A DNA stretch of 64,000 nucleotides from Caldisphaera sp. (GTDB lineage Archaea; Thermoproteota; Thermoprotei_A; Sulfolobales; Acidilobaceae): assembly GCF_023256325.1 (NCBI RefSeq), contig NZ_JAGDXI010000006.1, forward strand, positions 47,091 through 111,090, given 5' to 3'. Positions 37,831 to 40,687 of the stretch are shown piece after piece. How positions within the stretch are numbered: the stretch's first letter is position 1; each line of letters opens with the position of its first letter. The notes below the pieces were generated by a model, which did no database searches, was not told where the DNA came from, and saw nothing but the letters and a program-made list of their open reading frames with translations. The translations under genes and the position numbers were made by a program.

Positions 37831-40687
37831 TTAGATTTAGCCTCCCAGAAACTAATTCTTTTAATGCATTTTCTATTCCTATAGATTCCGCAATAGTGAT
37901 TGCCTTGAAAACTTTATAATAATCAAACACTTTTTTATTTACTAGTTCTCTTAAATATTTTGCTCTTAAGTCAAGTTCGTCATAAATAAGTCCGTAATTC
38001 TTTCTACTCAACCCTCTCATTCTGGCTATTTTTTCTTCAAGCAAATAAGAAGATCCCTTACCTGAGAAAAGAAACTTGTCAGTACTTGGATCCCAGTTAA
38101 ATATTGGTATAGCGCTTACTTGGTCTGTATTTGGGTCGTAACCTACTAGCTCATATAAAGATGTTTGTCTTCTTACCAACAAACCTGTCTTTGAATATGT
38201 TGATGCTTGAAACCATGCAAAATTTAAATTATCCATATATGGTTTGGGTATATTTATAGGATTTCCAGTGAGTCTTTGGATTAACCTTGTTAAGTCTCCA
38301 GCATGAAATGTGGCCATAACAGGATGACCTGTGTCTTCTAATGGTATTGGATAGCCATTATTAAATCCTATATAATATTTTGCTCCTTCTAACATTAAAT
38401 CATACGTATAATCTTCAATACTATAATCAGCTTTTATTATTTTTACGAATTCTTTATTGTCTTCATAAATAATTCTGTATTTCGATTTAACTAAATCTAA
38501 CGAAAACATATACCCTGAATACCAAAGTTTACTTATGTAAATATTTAATTTATCTTCATTAATTTTTATAAATTTAATTGATACATCGCTATAAGAGTTA
38601 ATTCTATAATTGGTAAGATCTTGATAAGAAATTTTATTTTTAAAAGTTTTAAGTAATTTATTTGCTATTTTTTTCCTTTGATAGAATTTTGGTTCTTTAT
38701 AAAATAATTCTTTTAACATATTGATTGCATATAAGATCTCCTCATCTTCTTTGAAGTTTATTATAATGGGATTTTTAATCGATGAGAATGCAGTAGAAGA
38801 TATAAAGCCTGAAATAATTAATTTTGTTACATTAAAATCAATATTAGGTATTTTGATTTTAATCTTTTTTCCATCAAATTCAATGAAGTTATTTTTTAGA
38901 AGCCAATCAACAAAAAACAATTCTAACTCATAATAGTAATATTTTCTACCTGACTTCCTCATTGGAATTATTGGTAGGTTATCAATCGTCATAAATTCTT
39001 CTAATTTATTAGTAGTTTTGAGTATGAACTTCCCCTTTCTATAACTAACATAGCTTCCTAAAATTACCCCAATTAAATACCAAAATAATGGATTTGATAT
39101 GTTTAATTTACCTTCTTTAAATTTTATGTATTTCTTTGTCGTTTCAAAGTTTTTAATTCTTTTCACATATACCTCTTTATTATTTTTTAATAAATTTACT
39201 ATTTGATTGGCCTCAATTTCACCATAGTTCGTTATAAATTTATGATTTTTTGTCACATCAAAAACGTTACCATCTTCAAGTTCAATCCTTATTAATTTTT
39301 CTTTTGGCATCATAGATATAGCAACAAGCTTAGCTTTAACTATTTTCCCATTATTATATGAAGGGATTTTGATTTCTTCATTTTTAATATAAACTATCTC
39401 TTTATTATCTATTATTTCGCTGCCAAATCTGCTTTTATAAAAATTAAATAAATCTTTGATATTTTTTATCTCATTTTCTAGTATTATTTTACCCTCTTTT
39501 ATACATTGCATGGCCTGAAATGCTATGGCTCCTTCTGCACCCCTTATTTCTCCGACTATTATATAATCTGGTCTTTGCCTTAATGCTGCTCTTAGCAAAT
39601 CAAATAAAGTTACACTTGTTTCTGGCTTTCCAGTATCCCTTGCAAGCTCTCTAGTCCAATTCGAATGAGGTAATTGTATTTCGGCCGTATCTTCTATTGT
39701 TACAATTTTATTTGTAGGTTTAATAAATGCGGCAATGGCATTCAAAGCAGTTGTTTTACCTGATGCAGTTTCTCCACATATAAAACCGCTCATCCCTTCT
39801 CTTAAAAGCATCCAAGTATATGCTCCAACCCTTTCATCTATAGTGTTCCAATCTATTAGTTGAGTAACACTTATTGGTATTTGAGAAAATTTTCTTATAG
39901 TAAAATTAGTTCCATTTAAGCTAACGTCTGATCCAAAAACAATATTTAATCTGCTACCATCAGGCAAGCTAGCATCAACTATTGGTCTAGCCCTGGTTAT
40001 AGGCTTACCAATTTTTTCTCCTAATCTTAAAACAAAAGAATCCAATTCATCTTGGGATTTAAAACCCAAATTGCTGGCTAATCTATTAAAAATTTTATGA
40101 ACAACATATATTGGACCAACACCACTGCATGATATATCTTCCAAAAAAGGATCTCTTAAAAACGGTTCTAGAACCCCAACTCCAATCTTATCCCTTATTA
40201 TGTGATACTTTAAATAATTTATCGTTTCTTTTTTCACGGGAATTTTTTCAATATAGAAAGAATTCATCATGGTTTTATAATCTATTTCTTTGTTAGTCGG
40301 TTCTAATATTTCATCAATAAGTTTAAGCAACATTTTTTTCCTTTCTTGAGCGTTCTCAGGCGCTTCTTCATGAATTTTATTTGCAAGAGCTATGTCTACA
40401 AGTCTTAAAATTTCATTTTTTGGCTTAGGAGGTTCAATAACAATATATTTACCCATATCGCTTCCTTTTACAGATGAAACGTGTATAAATACCCCTCCTC
40501 CAACAGGATAAATAAAATTAAATTCTCTTAGTTTTCTCATACTAGAATCTGGTTTGCTTATATATTGAGGAGGATTTTCAACGCTTTTCATATAATTATC
40601 TAAATAATCAGGTTTCTCTCCGAAGTCCGGTTCTTTAGCTTCTATTTCGCTTTTTTTCCTTTTAAATATGTTCAATTTGATTGCCAT
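37823..40687 (-). CDS. arlI: Archaellum motor ATPase ArlI (FlaI), interrupted by an intein
   Basis: 954 aa. Walker A [9 protein letters not shown], Walker B [10 protein letters not shown], His-box [12 protein letters not shown]. The exteins (394+169 aa) form a normal-length secretion-superfamily ATPase. Confidence 0.9.
   Translation of the reverse strand: [954 protein letters not shown]
38333..39505 (-). mobile_element. Intein (391 aa) with a degenerate LAGLIDADG homing-endonuclease domain inside arlI
   Basis: Residues 395-785. Cys1 CIKEGKIIL, TxxH block [17 protein letters not shown]-like [16 protein letters not shown] and [13 protein letters not shown] (acidic residues lost), block F [16 protein letters not shown]. 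It ends PIPLED, followed by +1 Thr of TGH. Confidence 0.75.

What the first reader, a model, noticed from the sequence alone, without database searches (positions are those of the whole stretch)
38333..39505. Large intein with a non-canonical C-terminal junction inside the archaellum motor ATPase ArlI (FlaI)
arlI encodes 954 aa. Residues 1-394 plus 786-954 (563 aa) already make a complete FlaI-type ATPase, with Walker A [9 protein letters not shown], Walker B [10 protein letters not shown] and His-box [12 protein letters not shown].

The 391-aa insert sits exactly between ...AFQAMQ and the conserved TGH. It carries these intein hallmarks:
- Cys1 (CIKEGKIIL).
- A TxxH block (DVTKNHKF).
- Two [9 protein letters not shown]-like helices ([16 protein letters not shown] and [13 protein letters not shown]). 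Both have lost the catalytic acidic residue, so the homing endonuclease is probably dead.
- A block F-like [16 protein letters not shown].
- A +1 Thr.

The C-terminal splice junction reads PIPLED|T instead of the canonical HN|C/S/T. That means a terminal Asp and no penultimate His. Inteins ending in Asp or Gln have been reported to splice, but they are rare.

The cell's only archaellum motor ATPase therefore depends on an atypical, or possibly crippled, splicing reaction. That could act as a post-translational gate on motility. I do not recall a described ArlI/FlaI intein in Sulfolobales. The related KlbA/VirB11-like ATPase intein of Methanocaldococcus is the nearest precedent I know.
Basis: partly seen in the sequence, partly recalled or inferred. 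Interest (0 to 1): 0.75.

Follow-up and report, generated by a model that had tools for sequence, protein, structure and literature searches.

The report
Asp-ending intein in archaellum ATPase ArlI
The archaellum motor ATPase gene of this Caldisphaera archaeon carries a real self-splicing protein insert (an intein) that ends in aspartate instead of the usual histidine-asparagine, and this odd ending is conserved in a small clade found in several archaeal phyla, so it is probably a working rare variant and not a broken one.

Summary
The ORF at 37823..40687 (-) encodes a 954-aa ArlI/FlaI. A 391-aa insert (C395-D785, window 38333..39505) sits exactly between AFQAMQ and the His-box TGH.

The insert is an intein:
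- TIGR01445 scores above its cutoff.
- The AF2 model has pLDDT 87, and its best PDB fold matches are archaeal endonuclease-bearing inteins.
- Cys1, block B TxxH, block F Asp and Thr+1 are all present.
- The endonuclease has lost both catalytic acidic residues.

The ED|T junction is not decay. The terminal Asp is kept in all 18 full-length relatives read except one (SN) at the same ArlI site, and in four further genomic loci. These include 162-aa and 238-aa mini-inteins, and hosts in Caldisphaeraceae, Nanoarchaeota/Nanobdellota, Woesearchaeota and Methanosarcinales. Asp and Glu codons vary synonymously. The splicing domain has dN/dS of about 0.05 and the exteins about 0.01-0.02. The arl operon is intact. 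Nanobdellota strain YN1, which carries a clade member in its operon FlaI, makes archaellum-like filaments.

FlaI inteins are common in public data, including a canonical Ser1...HN clade at the same site. Asp-terminal splicing has a precedent. The idea of a gate on motility remains untested.

Verdict: a new member of a known rare kind, of moderate interest.

The parts
37823..40687 (-). arlI/flaI precursor ORF, 954 aa (110.3 kDa), comprising N-extein, intein and C-extein
   Evidence: ORF; NF058587 ArlI/FlaI equivalog 641.6 bits against cutoff 550; PF00437 T2SSE; masses
39506..40687 (-). N-extein, aa 1-394 (Walker A 39749..39775; Walker B 39539..39568); ends ...AFQAMQ
38333..39505 (-). Intein, aa 395-785 (391 aa, 46.5 kDa), 23% GC
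39503..39505 (-). Cys395, intein residue 1 and N-terminal nucleophile (block A)
   Evidence: invariant in 9/9 aligned clade members and 11/11
39242..39253 (-). Block B T479-K-N-H482 (TxxH)
   Evidence: T85 and H88 of the intein are invariant; aligns with TGSH of the canonical same-site clade
39041..39088 (-). Degenerate LAGLIDADG motif 1 ([16 protein letters not shown]). The acidic residue present in the Nanoarchaeota homolog (LGDD) is replaced by S-Y
   Evidence: alignment; HEN fold from Foldseek hits to the TliVMA, PI-PfuI and PhoVMA inteins
38786..38824 (-). Degenerate LAGLIDADG motif 2 ([13 protein letters not shown]). The homolog reads FLAGMFDSDGS
   Evidence: no Pfam LAGLIDADG hit in the window intein; weak PF14528 hit on this motif in P0064
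38363..38410 (-). Block F [16 protein letters not shown] (Asp763 at the F:4-equivalent position)
   Evidence: Y368, D369, Y377, Y378 and G380 of the intein are invariant; aligns with YVYDVSVPETELFIGG of the canonical clade
38333..38350 (-). Block G PIPLED. Glu784-Asp785 takes the place of His-Asn; C-terminal splice junction
   Evidence: E390 and D391 invariant; aligns with PIALHN; codons GAA/GAG and GAT/GAC vary among loci
37823..38332 (-). C-extein, aa 786-954 plus stop. Begins with Thr786 (+1 nucleophile) of the His box [12 protein letters not shown] (38297..38332)
36196..37830 (-). arlJ (544 aa); its start overlaps the arlI stop by 8 nt
   Evidence: NF004705 ArlJ 462 bits against cutoff 400
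40700..41389 (-). arlH (229 aa)
   Evidence: NF004723 FlaH 201 bits against cutoff 194
41401..42387 (-). arlF-like (41401..41892) and arlG-like (41893..42387)
   Evidence: PF01917, and PF22201 FlaF_Ig-like below its cutoff; weak ArlG NF052591 hit
42387..43181 (-). 264-aa ORF in the position of crenarchaeal arlX. No family hit; assigned by position only
44139..44780 (-). Archaellin arlB (213 aa)
   Evidence: PF01917 78 bits

Best explanation
This is a class-1 intein with a decayed LAGLIDADG homing endonuclease. It is inserted in the His box of the archaellum ATPase ArlI of a Caldisphaera species.

The inferred pathway is as follows. The 110-kDa precursor is translated. Cys395 makes the N-S acyl shift, helped by block B Thr479/His482. 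Thr786 takes over the N-extein by transesterification. Asp785, not Asn, cyclises, presumably to a succinic anhydride, and breaks the Asp785-Thr786 bond. An O-N shift then yields a seamless 563-aa (63.8-kDa) ArlI reading ...[12 protein letters not shown]..., plus a free 46.5-kDa intein.

The terminal Asp with no penultimate His is the conserved, selected state of a small intein clade that occupies this one ArlI site in several archaeal phyla. The element is fixed in the Caldisphaeraceae sequences read here and no longer homes. It persists because imprecise loss would destroy an essential catalytic motif.

Shown here: the anatomy, the fold, conservation and selection, and the distribution. Inferred: that splicing actually occurs, and the chemistry of step 3.
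For: Intein identity:
- TIGR01445 scores 32.7 bits against a cutoff of 24.5.
- PF14890 spans profile positions 1-149 of 155.
- The AF2 model has pLDDT 86.8 and pTM 0.83.
- All top Foldseek PDB hits are inteins: TliVMA 9e-13, PI-PfuI 3e-12, PhoVMA, PI-TkoII, then mini-inteins.

Host context:
- The exteins form a gap-free FlaI against PDB 4II7.
- Intein-free orthologs exist.

Junction conservation:
- ED is invariant in 11 of 11 close members. These include 238-aa minis, and a 162-aa mini (P0122) also ends in ED.
- More distant members end in FD, ED, YD, YD and ND. Only one ends in SN.
- Asp codons GAT/GAC and Glu codons GAA/GAG alternate between loci.

Selection (window vs P0002; dS is saturated, so the values are approximate):
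- Hint-N dN/dS 0.04, Hint-C 0.05, HEN-like region 0.16, exteins 0.01-0.02.
- Against P0001, Hint-C shows 0 nonsynonymous and 3 synonymous changes.

Other support:
- hhalign in forced-global mode places PIPLED on PIALHN and YTYDL on YVYDV of the canonical same-site clade.
- The arlB-X-G-F-H-I-J cluster is intact.
- Indirect in vivo support: Nanobdellota YN1's operon FlaI (next to FlaD/E and ArlH) carries a clade member ending IED|T, and YN1 shows archaellum-like filaments by SEM (PMC11420986).
- Precedent: inteins ending in Asp, Gln or Glu splice by the same scheme with a modified step 3 (PMC4031507, citing Amitai et al. 2004).
Against: - No protein-level data exist for this intein or any clade member. 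Splicing is inferred only.
- PF14890 is below its gathering score (33.1 vs 35.8) and there is no TIGR01443 (C-terminal) hit.
- The review notes that variant C-terminal residues can mean slow splicing, so efficiency is unknown.
- YN1 motility was not observed, and its filaments are only 'archaellum-like'.
- Whether Caldisphaera is archaellated was not established here.
- dS is saturated in the more divergent comparison, so dN/dS values are approximate.
Confidence: 0.8

Rival explanations
1. Conditional or slow-splicing intein acting as a post-translational gate. The Asp terminus makes step 3 rate-limiting and sensitive to temperature, pH or another cue, so that active ArlI, and hence archaellation, appears only under certain conditions.
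For: Variant C-terminal residues can slow step 3 (PMC4031507). Conditional splicing of archaeal inteins is documented for P. horikoshii RadA (PMC4513877, abstract listed). The site lies in a catalytic motif, so the precursor should be inactive. Some mini-intein relatives carry Cys1 plus Cys5, a possible redox pair.
Against: Nothing in the sequence indicates regulation. The same clade lives in hosts with very different lifestyles, including Methanosalsum natronophilum and uncultured Methanosarcinales and Woesearchaeota genomes. That argues the Asp is a general catalytic solution, not a hot-acid sensor. Many close FlaI orthologs do without any intein, so a regulatory role is not required.
Confidence: 0.12
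2. Dead intein in a pseudogenised arlI. The Asn-to-Asp and His-to-Glu changes abolished splicing, the archaellum is non-functional and the locus is decaying.
For: The junction departs from HN. The homing endonuclease has lost its catalytic acids. The intein is AT-rich. No TIGR01443 hit.
Against: The exteins have dN/dS of 0.01-0.05 and the Hint domain about 0.05. The ORF and the whole arl operon are intact in the window and in two other Caldisphaera assemblies. Terminal Asp is conserved across phyla and in mini-inteins, with synonymous codon variation. A genuinely decayed copy looks different: P0128 has Tyr1 and its His box has changed to TGAGV.
Confidence: 0.05
3. A permanent, non-excised domain insertion. 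The Hint/HEN-derived module stays in mature ArlI and has been co-opted for a new role.
For: The HEN-like region is still under moderate constraint (dN/dS 0.16-0.26) although it is catalytically dead.
Against: The insert splits the conserved AMQ|TGH His box in the ATPase core. Insert length ranges from 162 to 661 aa within the clade, and presence or absence is polymorphic among orthologs. All splicing residues (Cys1, TxxH, block F Asp, Thr+1) are invariant, which only makes sense if splicing is selected.
Confidence: 0.03

Closest known systems
Asp-terminated Chy RIR1 intein (Carboxydothermus hydrogenoformans ribonucleotide reductase; Amitai, Dassa & Pietrokovski 2004, as cited in PMC4031507)
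   Same: A class-1-type intein whose last residue is Asp instead of Asn. It was shown experimentally to splice. The review cites Amitai et al. for inteins with atypical Gln and Asp termini; the name and host of the Asp-ended one, and that it splices, are from my memory of that paper. The review states that Asp, Gln and Glu enders use the same four-step scheme with cyclisation of that residue.
   Different: It has a different host protein and phylum (bacterial RNR). No sequence relationship was tested here. It was described as a unique case, whereas here the Asp is conserved across a whole clade, together with loss of the penultimate His.
Canonical Ser1...HN intein at the same FlaI His-box site (Desulfurococcales, Fervidicoccaceae and others; e.g. 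P0014, P0029, P0036)
   Same: It has an identical insertion point, AFQAMQ|...|TGH, and Thr+1. It occurs in full-length (PF14528 LAGLIDADG) and mini forms. Blocks F and G are visibly alike (YVYDVSVPETELFIGGN-IPIALHN vs [26 protein letters not shown]).
   Different: It has Ser1, not Cys1, and ends in the canonical His-Asn. It is only remotely similar overall (hhalign probability 63%, 18% identity).
Mja KlbA intein (class 2) in a VirB11/KilB-like secretion ATPase of Methanocaldococcus jannaschii
   Same: It is an archaeal intein in a paralogous secretion-type ATPase. It shares the Hint fold; 2JMZ appears among the Foldseek hits (rank 39).
   Different: KlbA inteins start with Ala1, use the class-2 mechanism and end with the canonical Asn (PMC4031507). 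This intein has Cys1 and terminal Asp. There was no sequence-level hit. The KlbA insertion site was not compared.
Archaeal COG0630 (listed as VirB11) inteins tallied by Novikova et al. 2016 (PMC4760082)
   Same: That survey counts 21 archaeal inteins in this ATPase family, including Crenarchaeota. That COG0630 also covers FlaI/ArlI is from my own knowledge, not from the paper. On that basis intein-bearing FlaI-family ATPases are a known category.
   Different: In the passages read, the survey gives no site-level or junction-level description. The Asp-terminated clade is not singled out.
HEN-bearing archaeal VMA and RIR1 inteins (TliVMA 7QSU, PhoVMA 7QST, PI-PfuI 1DQ3)
   Same: They are the best structural matches to the AF2 model: a Hint domain with a nested LAGLIDADG endonuclease.
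   Different: Sequence identity is 12-15%. They sit in different host proteins and have the canonical HN terminus. Their endonuclease motifs were not compared here; the window copy has lost both catalytic acids.

Membership tests
Intein (Hint-domain protein-splicing element), class 1 | In-frame insertion in a conserved host motif, absent from orthologs, whose removal restores a collinear host protein | tested here: met
   Intein-free FlaI orthologs read [10 protein letters not shown]. The spliced sequence aligns gap-free to 4II7.
Intein (Hint-domain protein-splicing element), class 1 | Cys/Ser/Thr at intein position 1 | tested here: met
   Cys395, invariant in the clade.
Intein (Hint-domain protein-splicing element), class 1 | Block B Thr-x-x-His | tested here: met
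   T479-K-N-H482. T85 and H88 are invariant.
Intein (Hint-domain protein-splicing element), class 1 | Cys/Ser/Thr at +1 of the C-extein | tested here: met
   Thr786 of the His box.
Intein (Hint-domain protein-splicing element), class 1 | C-terminal His-Asn (G:6, G:7) | tested here: not met
   The sequence is Glu784-Asp785. Documented exceptions with Asp, Gln or Glu still splice (PMC4031507), so this feature is typical but not obligatory.
Intein (Hint-domain protein-splicing element), class 1 | Hint fold | tested here: met
   AF2 pLDDT 86.8. Among the 50 Foldseek PDB hits listed, all with E <= 0.001 are inteins.
Intein (Hint-domain protein-splicing element), class 1 | Curated HMM thresholds | tested here: inconclusive
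   TIGR01445 (N-terminal region) scores 32.7 against cutoff 24.5 and passes. PF14890 scores 33.1 against gathering score 35.8 and fails narrowly. There is no TIGR01443 C-terminal hit.
Intein (Hint-domain protein-splicing element), class 1 | Demonstrated excision and extein ligation | not testable with these tools
   Requires expression or mass spectrometry. The only support is indirect: selection and YN1 archaellum-like filaments.
Class 2 (KlbA-type) inteins | No N-terminal nucleophile (Ala1) | tested here: not met
   Cys395.
Class 3 inteins | Cys at block F position 4 (WCT triplet) | tested here: not met
   The block F position is Asp (YTYD, D369 invariant).
Active LAGLIDADG homing endonuclease | Two LAGLIDADG motifs, each with a catalytic Asp or Glu | tested here: not met
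   The window has ...LGSY... and ...SGFISST..., where the Nanoarchaeota homolog has ...LGDD... and ...FDSDGS.... There is no Pfam LAGLIDADG hit.
Active LAGLIDADG homing endonuclease | LAGLIDADG endonuclease fold nested in the Hint domain | tested here: met
   The best Foldseek matches are full-length HEN inteins aligned over 443-587 columns. The helical and strand elements at 139-330 appear.
ArlI/FlaI archaellum ATPase (host protein) | Equivalog HMM above cutoff, Walker A/B and His box, arl operon context | tested here: met
   NF058587 scores 641.6 against cutoff 550. Motifs. Flanked by arlH and arlJ.
Asp-terminated inteins (Chy RIR1 type) | C-terminal Asp used in place of Asn | tested here: met
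   Asp785, conserved in the clade. Homology to Chy RIR1 itself was not tested.

The most novel reading that the evidence does not exclude
The Cys1...x-Asp|Thr inteins of ArlI/FlaI form a distinct, horizontally spreading clade found in Caldisphaeraceae, Nanoarchaeota/Nanobdellota, Woesearchaeota and Methanosarcinales. On this reading the clade has evolved an obligate Asp-cyclisation C-terminal cleavage without the penultimate His. The clade-specific conserved Tyr-Tyr in block F and the frequent Glu at G:6 may act as compensating residues. If true, this would be the first natural family, as opposed to a single case, in which to dissect Asp-driven splicing. It would also supply compact 162-238-aa mini-inteins, some from thermophile lineages. 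Because the Asp side chain ionises, step 3 could be intrinsically pH-tunable, which would couple archaellum motor maturation to cytoplasmic conditions.
Probability: 0.4. Interest if true: 0.55.

Novelty: new member of a known kind. Interest (0 to 1): 0.4.

Why it matters
It shows that an odd-looking splice junction in an essential motility ATPase is a conserved working solution and not damage.

It also identifies a naturally replicated set of Asp-terminated inteins: full-length forms, forms with a decayed endonuclease, and mini forms of 162-238 aa, some from thermophiles. These could be used to study, or to exploit for pH- or temperature-controlled C-terminal cleavage, a splicing chemistry that to my knowledge rests on essentially one characterised example.

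It flags that this clade falls under Pfam's intein threshold and is annotated only as 'T2SS/T4P/T4SS ATPase' or 'hypothetical protein'. Intein censuses and archaellum gene surveys therefore miss it or mis-size ArlI. The published YN1 genome paper is an example.

The near-equal intein similarity between Caldisphaeraceae and Nanoarchaeota copies, despite very different exteins, is a concrete trace of gene flow between DPANN lineages, whose cultured members are ectosymbionts of crenarchaea, and Caldisphaeraceae.

Tried and rejected
- Word-index homolog search with the intein alone returned nothing, although P0001 is about 95% identical in the intein. I treat this as a tool false negative for a K/I/N-rich query. 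The full-length query and the exhaustive profile search recovered the family.
- phmmer of the intein against PDB sequences gave only marginal intein hits (best E 0.015, TvoVMA). Fold comparison was needed.
- My first dN/dS run used an ungapped alignment and inflated the HEN-region dN because of one-codon indels. I redid it with a protein-guided codon alignment.
- I rejected a shifted junction (for example ...GFNN|G as a canonical Asn end). Gly cannot be the +1 nucleophile, orthologs fix the extein as Q|TGH, and the canonical clade aligns PIALHN onto PIPLED.
- I rejected sequencing error at the Asp codon. GAT and GAC occur in independent assemblies.
- I rejected class 2 and class 3 mechanisms, given Cys1 and Asp at F:4.
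- I looked for other features in or opposite the intein DNA. There is no Rfam hit, only one 70-aa antisense ORF, and only short chance-level repeats.
- Literature searches for 'intein' with FlaI, archaellum or Caldisphaera found no description of this intein. The Amitai 2004 paper is not held, so its details are cited through the 2014 review and from memory.
- The genome-contig scan did not return the window's own genome (best hit 68%), so the exact strain, and whether a second arlI exists, could not be checked.
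Full report
**1. The observation**

The ORF at 37823..40687 on the minus strand encodes 954 aa. The insert C395-D785 is 391 aa and maps to window 38333..39505. The two flanks total 563 aa.

The whole protein passes the NCBIfam ArlI/FlaI equivalog model (641.6 bits against a cutoff of 550), with the match broken exactly at residue 395. The 563-aa spliced sequence aligns without a gap across the junction to S. acidocaldarius FlaI, PDB 4II7 (...AFQAMQTGH(P/S)VMATFHA..., E 1e-161). The boundaries cannot slide, because the junction residues (Q|C and D|T) share nothing. 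The insert has 23% GC against 33% for both exteins.

**2. Is it an intein?**

- TIGR01445 (intein N-terminal region) passes its cutoff, 32.7 against 24.5 bits.
- Pfam Intein_splicing spans profile positions 1-149 of 155 but falls just under its gathering score, 33.1 against 35.8. Its last six positions, which hold HN, are unmatched.
- An AlphaFold2 model built on nine clade sequences is confident, with pLDDT 86.8 and pTM 0.83.
- Its best PDB fold matches are all inteins. First come archaeal inteins with a nested LAGLIDADG endonuclease: TliVMA 9e-13, PI-PfuI 3e-12, PhoVMA 5e-11, PI-TkoII 6e-8. Then come mini-inteins such as Pho RadA and TvoVMA, and Mja KlbA at rank 39.

Nothing else is encoded there. 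There is no Rfam family, only one 70-aa antisense ORF, and only short chance-level repeats.

**3. Host and context**

The closest proteins are from Caldisphaera sp. (P0001, 97%; P0002, 84%) and Caldisphaeraceae / Candidatus Hestiella MAGs (66%). The host is therefore Acidilobales, not Sulfolobales.

The gene sits in an intact crenarchaeal-type cluster:
- archaellin (44139..44780)
- a 264-aa ORF in the arlX position (42387..43181)
- arlG-like and arlF-like genes
- arlH (40700..41389)
- arlI
- arlJ (36196..37830, overlapping the arlI stop by 8 nt)

Two other Caldisphaera assemblies show the same gene order.

**4. The C-terminal junction is conserved, not decayed**

Among the top 120 FlaI homologs, about 50 carry a canonical Ser1...ALHN intein at exactly this site. 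Eleven (ten database homologs and the window's own copy) carry the Cys1...ED type.

In the Cys1 group the following are invariant: Cys1, DGN..VT.NHKF (block B), YD..L and YY.G.N (block F), and the terminal Glu-Asp. The group includes full-length forms with intact-looking LAGLIDADG motifs (Nanoarchaeota YN1...LGDD......FLAGMFDSDGS...), forms with decayed motifs (the window...LGSY......SGFISST...), and 238-aa mini-inteins.

An exhaustive profile search of 1.84 billion representative proteins found only 38 hits at E <= 0.001. The informative ones are all at the same FlaI site:

| Protein | Ending | Note |
|---|---|---|
| P0122 | ED | 162-aa mini-intein |
| P0123 | FD | |
| P0124 | ED | |
| P0125 | YD | |
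| P0126 | YD | identical-length cluster mate is Methanosalsum natronophilum WP_259134120 |
| P0135 | ND | |
| P0127 | SN | the only Asn-ender |
| P0128 | QD | Tyr1, His box changed to TGAGV; this is what real decay looks like |

Genomic loci from Woesearchaeota (PIPLED|TGH) and uncultured Methanosarcinales (GYIYD|TGH) add to the list. Across loci the Asp codon alternates between GAT and GAC and the Glu codon between GAA and GAG. The amino acids are therefore selected, and sequencing error is excluded.

A profile-profile alignment in forced-global mode places PIPLED on PIALHN and YTYDL on YVYDV of the canonical same-site clade. Asp785 thus occupies the Asn position and Glu784 the His position.

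**5. Selection**

A codon-aligned Nei-Gojobori analysis of the window against P0002 gave the values below. dS is saturated, so they are approximate.

| Region | dN/dS |
|---|---|
| N-extein | 0.02 |
| C-extein | 0.01 |
| Hint-N (395-515) | 0.04 |
| Hint-C (711-785) | 0.05 |
| HEN-like middle (516-710) | 0.16 |

Against the closer P0001 (dS about 0.15), Hint-C has 0 nonsynonymous and 3 synonymous changes, and the HEN-like region has dN/dS of 0.26. The splicing domain is nearly as constrained as a core enzyme. The endonuclease remnant is relaxed but not neutral.

**6. Mechanism**

Established intein chemistry (PMC4031507) applies. The element has the class-1 set: Cys1, Thr/His in block B, Asp at block F:4 and Thr+1. 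The review states that inteins ending in Asp, Gln or Glu use the same four steps, with cyclisation of that residue in step 3, and that loss of the penultimate His occurs in working inteins.

I therefore infer the following sequence. Cys395 makes the N-S shift. Transesterification to Thr786 follows. Asp785 cyclises (the anhydride is inferred) and cleaves the D785-T786 bond. An O-N shift then gives 63.8-kDa ArlI and a 46.5-kDa intein (masses).

Class 2 (Ala1) and class 3 (Cys at F:4) are excluded by the sequence.

Indirect in vivo support comes from Nanobdellota strain YN1. Its operon FlaI (P0064; adjacent to FlaD/E and ArlH) carries a clade member ending IED|T. YN1 is reported to carry the archaellum genes and to show archaellum-like filaments by SEM. 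That paper does not mention an intein (PMC11420986).

**7. Evolutionary picture**

Within the Caldisphaeraceae, intein divergence tracks extein divergence, which fits vertical descent of a fixed element whose endonuclease has died:

| Comparison with the window | Extein identity | Hint-N / Hint-C identity |
|---|---|---|
| P0001 | 99% | 96% / 100% |
| P0002 | 95% | 70% / 80% |
| P0003-P0005 | 84% | about 58% / 57% |

The Nanoarchaeota copies are just as close in the Hint domain (56-58%) although their exteins are only 44% identical. That indicates horizontal transfer of the intein between DPANN and Caldisphaeraceae lineages. FlaI also has a second intein site in Walker A (GE|S...AHN|TASGKT), and some proteins carry both inteins.

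**8. Comparison with what is known, and novelty**

- Inteins in archaeal COG0630, which that paper lists as VirB11 and which to my knowledge also covers FlaI/ArlI, have been counted: 21, including Crenarchaeota (PMC4760082).
- Asp-terminal splicing has an experimental precedent (Amitai et al. 2004, cited; details from memory).
- Searches for 'intein' with FlaI, archaellum or Caldisphaera found no description of this clade.

This is a new member, really a small new clade, of a known rare kind. It is not a new kind of system.

Three of its points are not supported: the taxonomic guess, the suggestion that the junction may be crippled, and the belief that ArlI inteins are undescribed. The motility-gate idea remains untested speculation.

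**9. Limits**

- No protein-level evidence exists.
- The window's own genome was not retrievable, so a second arlI copy cannot be excluded.
- I did not establish whether Caldisphaera is archaellated.

Noticed in passing
P0064/L007 (Nanoarchaeota YN1, AP031373.1) compared with window 38333..39505: The intein Hint domain is 56-58% identical between the Caldisphaera and Nanoarchaeota copies. That matches the 57-59% between Caldisphaera and Ca. Hestiella/Caldisphaeraceae, although the exteins are 44% and 84% identical respectively. This implies horizontal intein transfer between DPANN and Caldisphaeraceae lineages.
   Followed up: partly
P0025, P0083, P0055, P0057, P0094 (FlaI homologs): There is a second intein site in FlaI, inside Walker A (GE|S...AHN|TASGKT, 438-487 aa). 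Three proteins of 1271-1331 aa carry both the Walker-A and the His-box inteins.
   Followed up: partly
P0014, P0021, P0028 and about 50 others: A canonical Ser1...ALHN intein clade occupies exactly the same His-box site in FlaI homologs; the few with a source name are Fervidicoccaceae MAGs or labelled only 'flagellar protein FlaI'. Full-length members (with PF14528) and mini forms both occur. Its blocks F and G resemble those of the Asp-ending clade.
   Followed up: partly
P0096, P0103, P0111 (238-aa mini-inteins): These relatives have Cys1 and Cys5 (CIRDCK / CIKECK). A disulfide between them could act as a redox switch on splicing. The window intein lacks Cys5.
   Followed up: no
P0128 (767 aa): This is a decayed relative: Tyr in place of Cys1, ending QD, and the host His box changed to TGAGV. 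It is a useful contrast showing what a non-functional copy looks like.
   Followed up: no
PMC11420986; YN1_5660 (P0064); L007 1789..4920: The operon FlaI of the cultured Nanobdellota strain YN1 is 1043 aa because of a 482-aa intein, and NCBI labels it 'hypothetical protein'. The genome paper lists FlaI but never mentions an intein.
   Followed up: yes
window 38333..39505 and clade members: Pfam PF14890 scores every tested clade member below its gathering cutoff (17-33 bits against 35.8). Routine annotation therefore does not flag these inteins. The word-index protein search with the intein alone also returned nothing.
   Followed up: partly
window 37823..37830: The arlI stop region overlaps the arlJ start by 8 nt, which suggests translational coupling. 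In the P0001 contig, arlJ was called 50 nt downstream instead.
   Followed up: no
window 42387..43181 (-) and 43064..43420 (-): The 264-aa ORF upstream of arlG has no family hit in Pfam or NCBIfam. It is Q/E/K-rich and sits where crenarchaeal arlX would be. In related contigs the called genes there are 220-226 aa plus 114-115 aa.
   Followed up: no
L007 5001..6272: The tyrosine-tRNA ligase next to YN1 flaI is 423 aa and matches the 342-position TyrRS model in two stretches. This may reflect an insertion in that gene.
   Followed up: no
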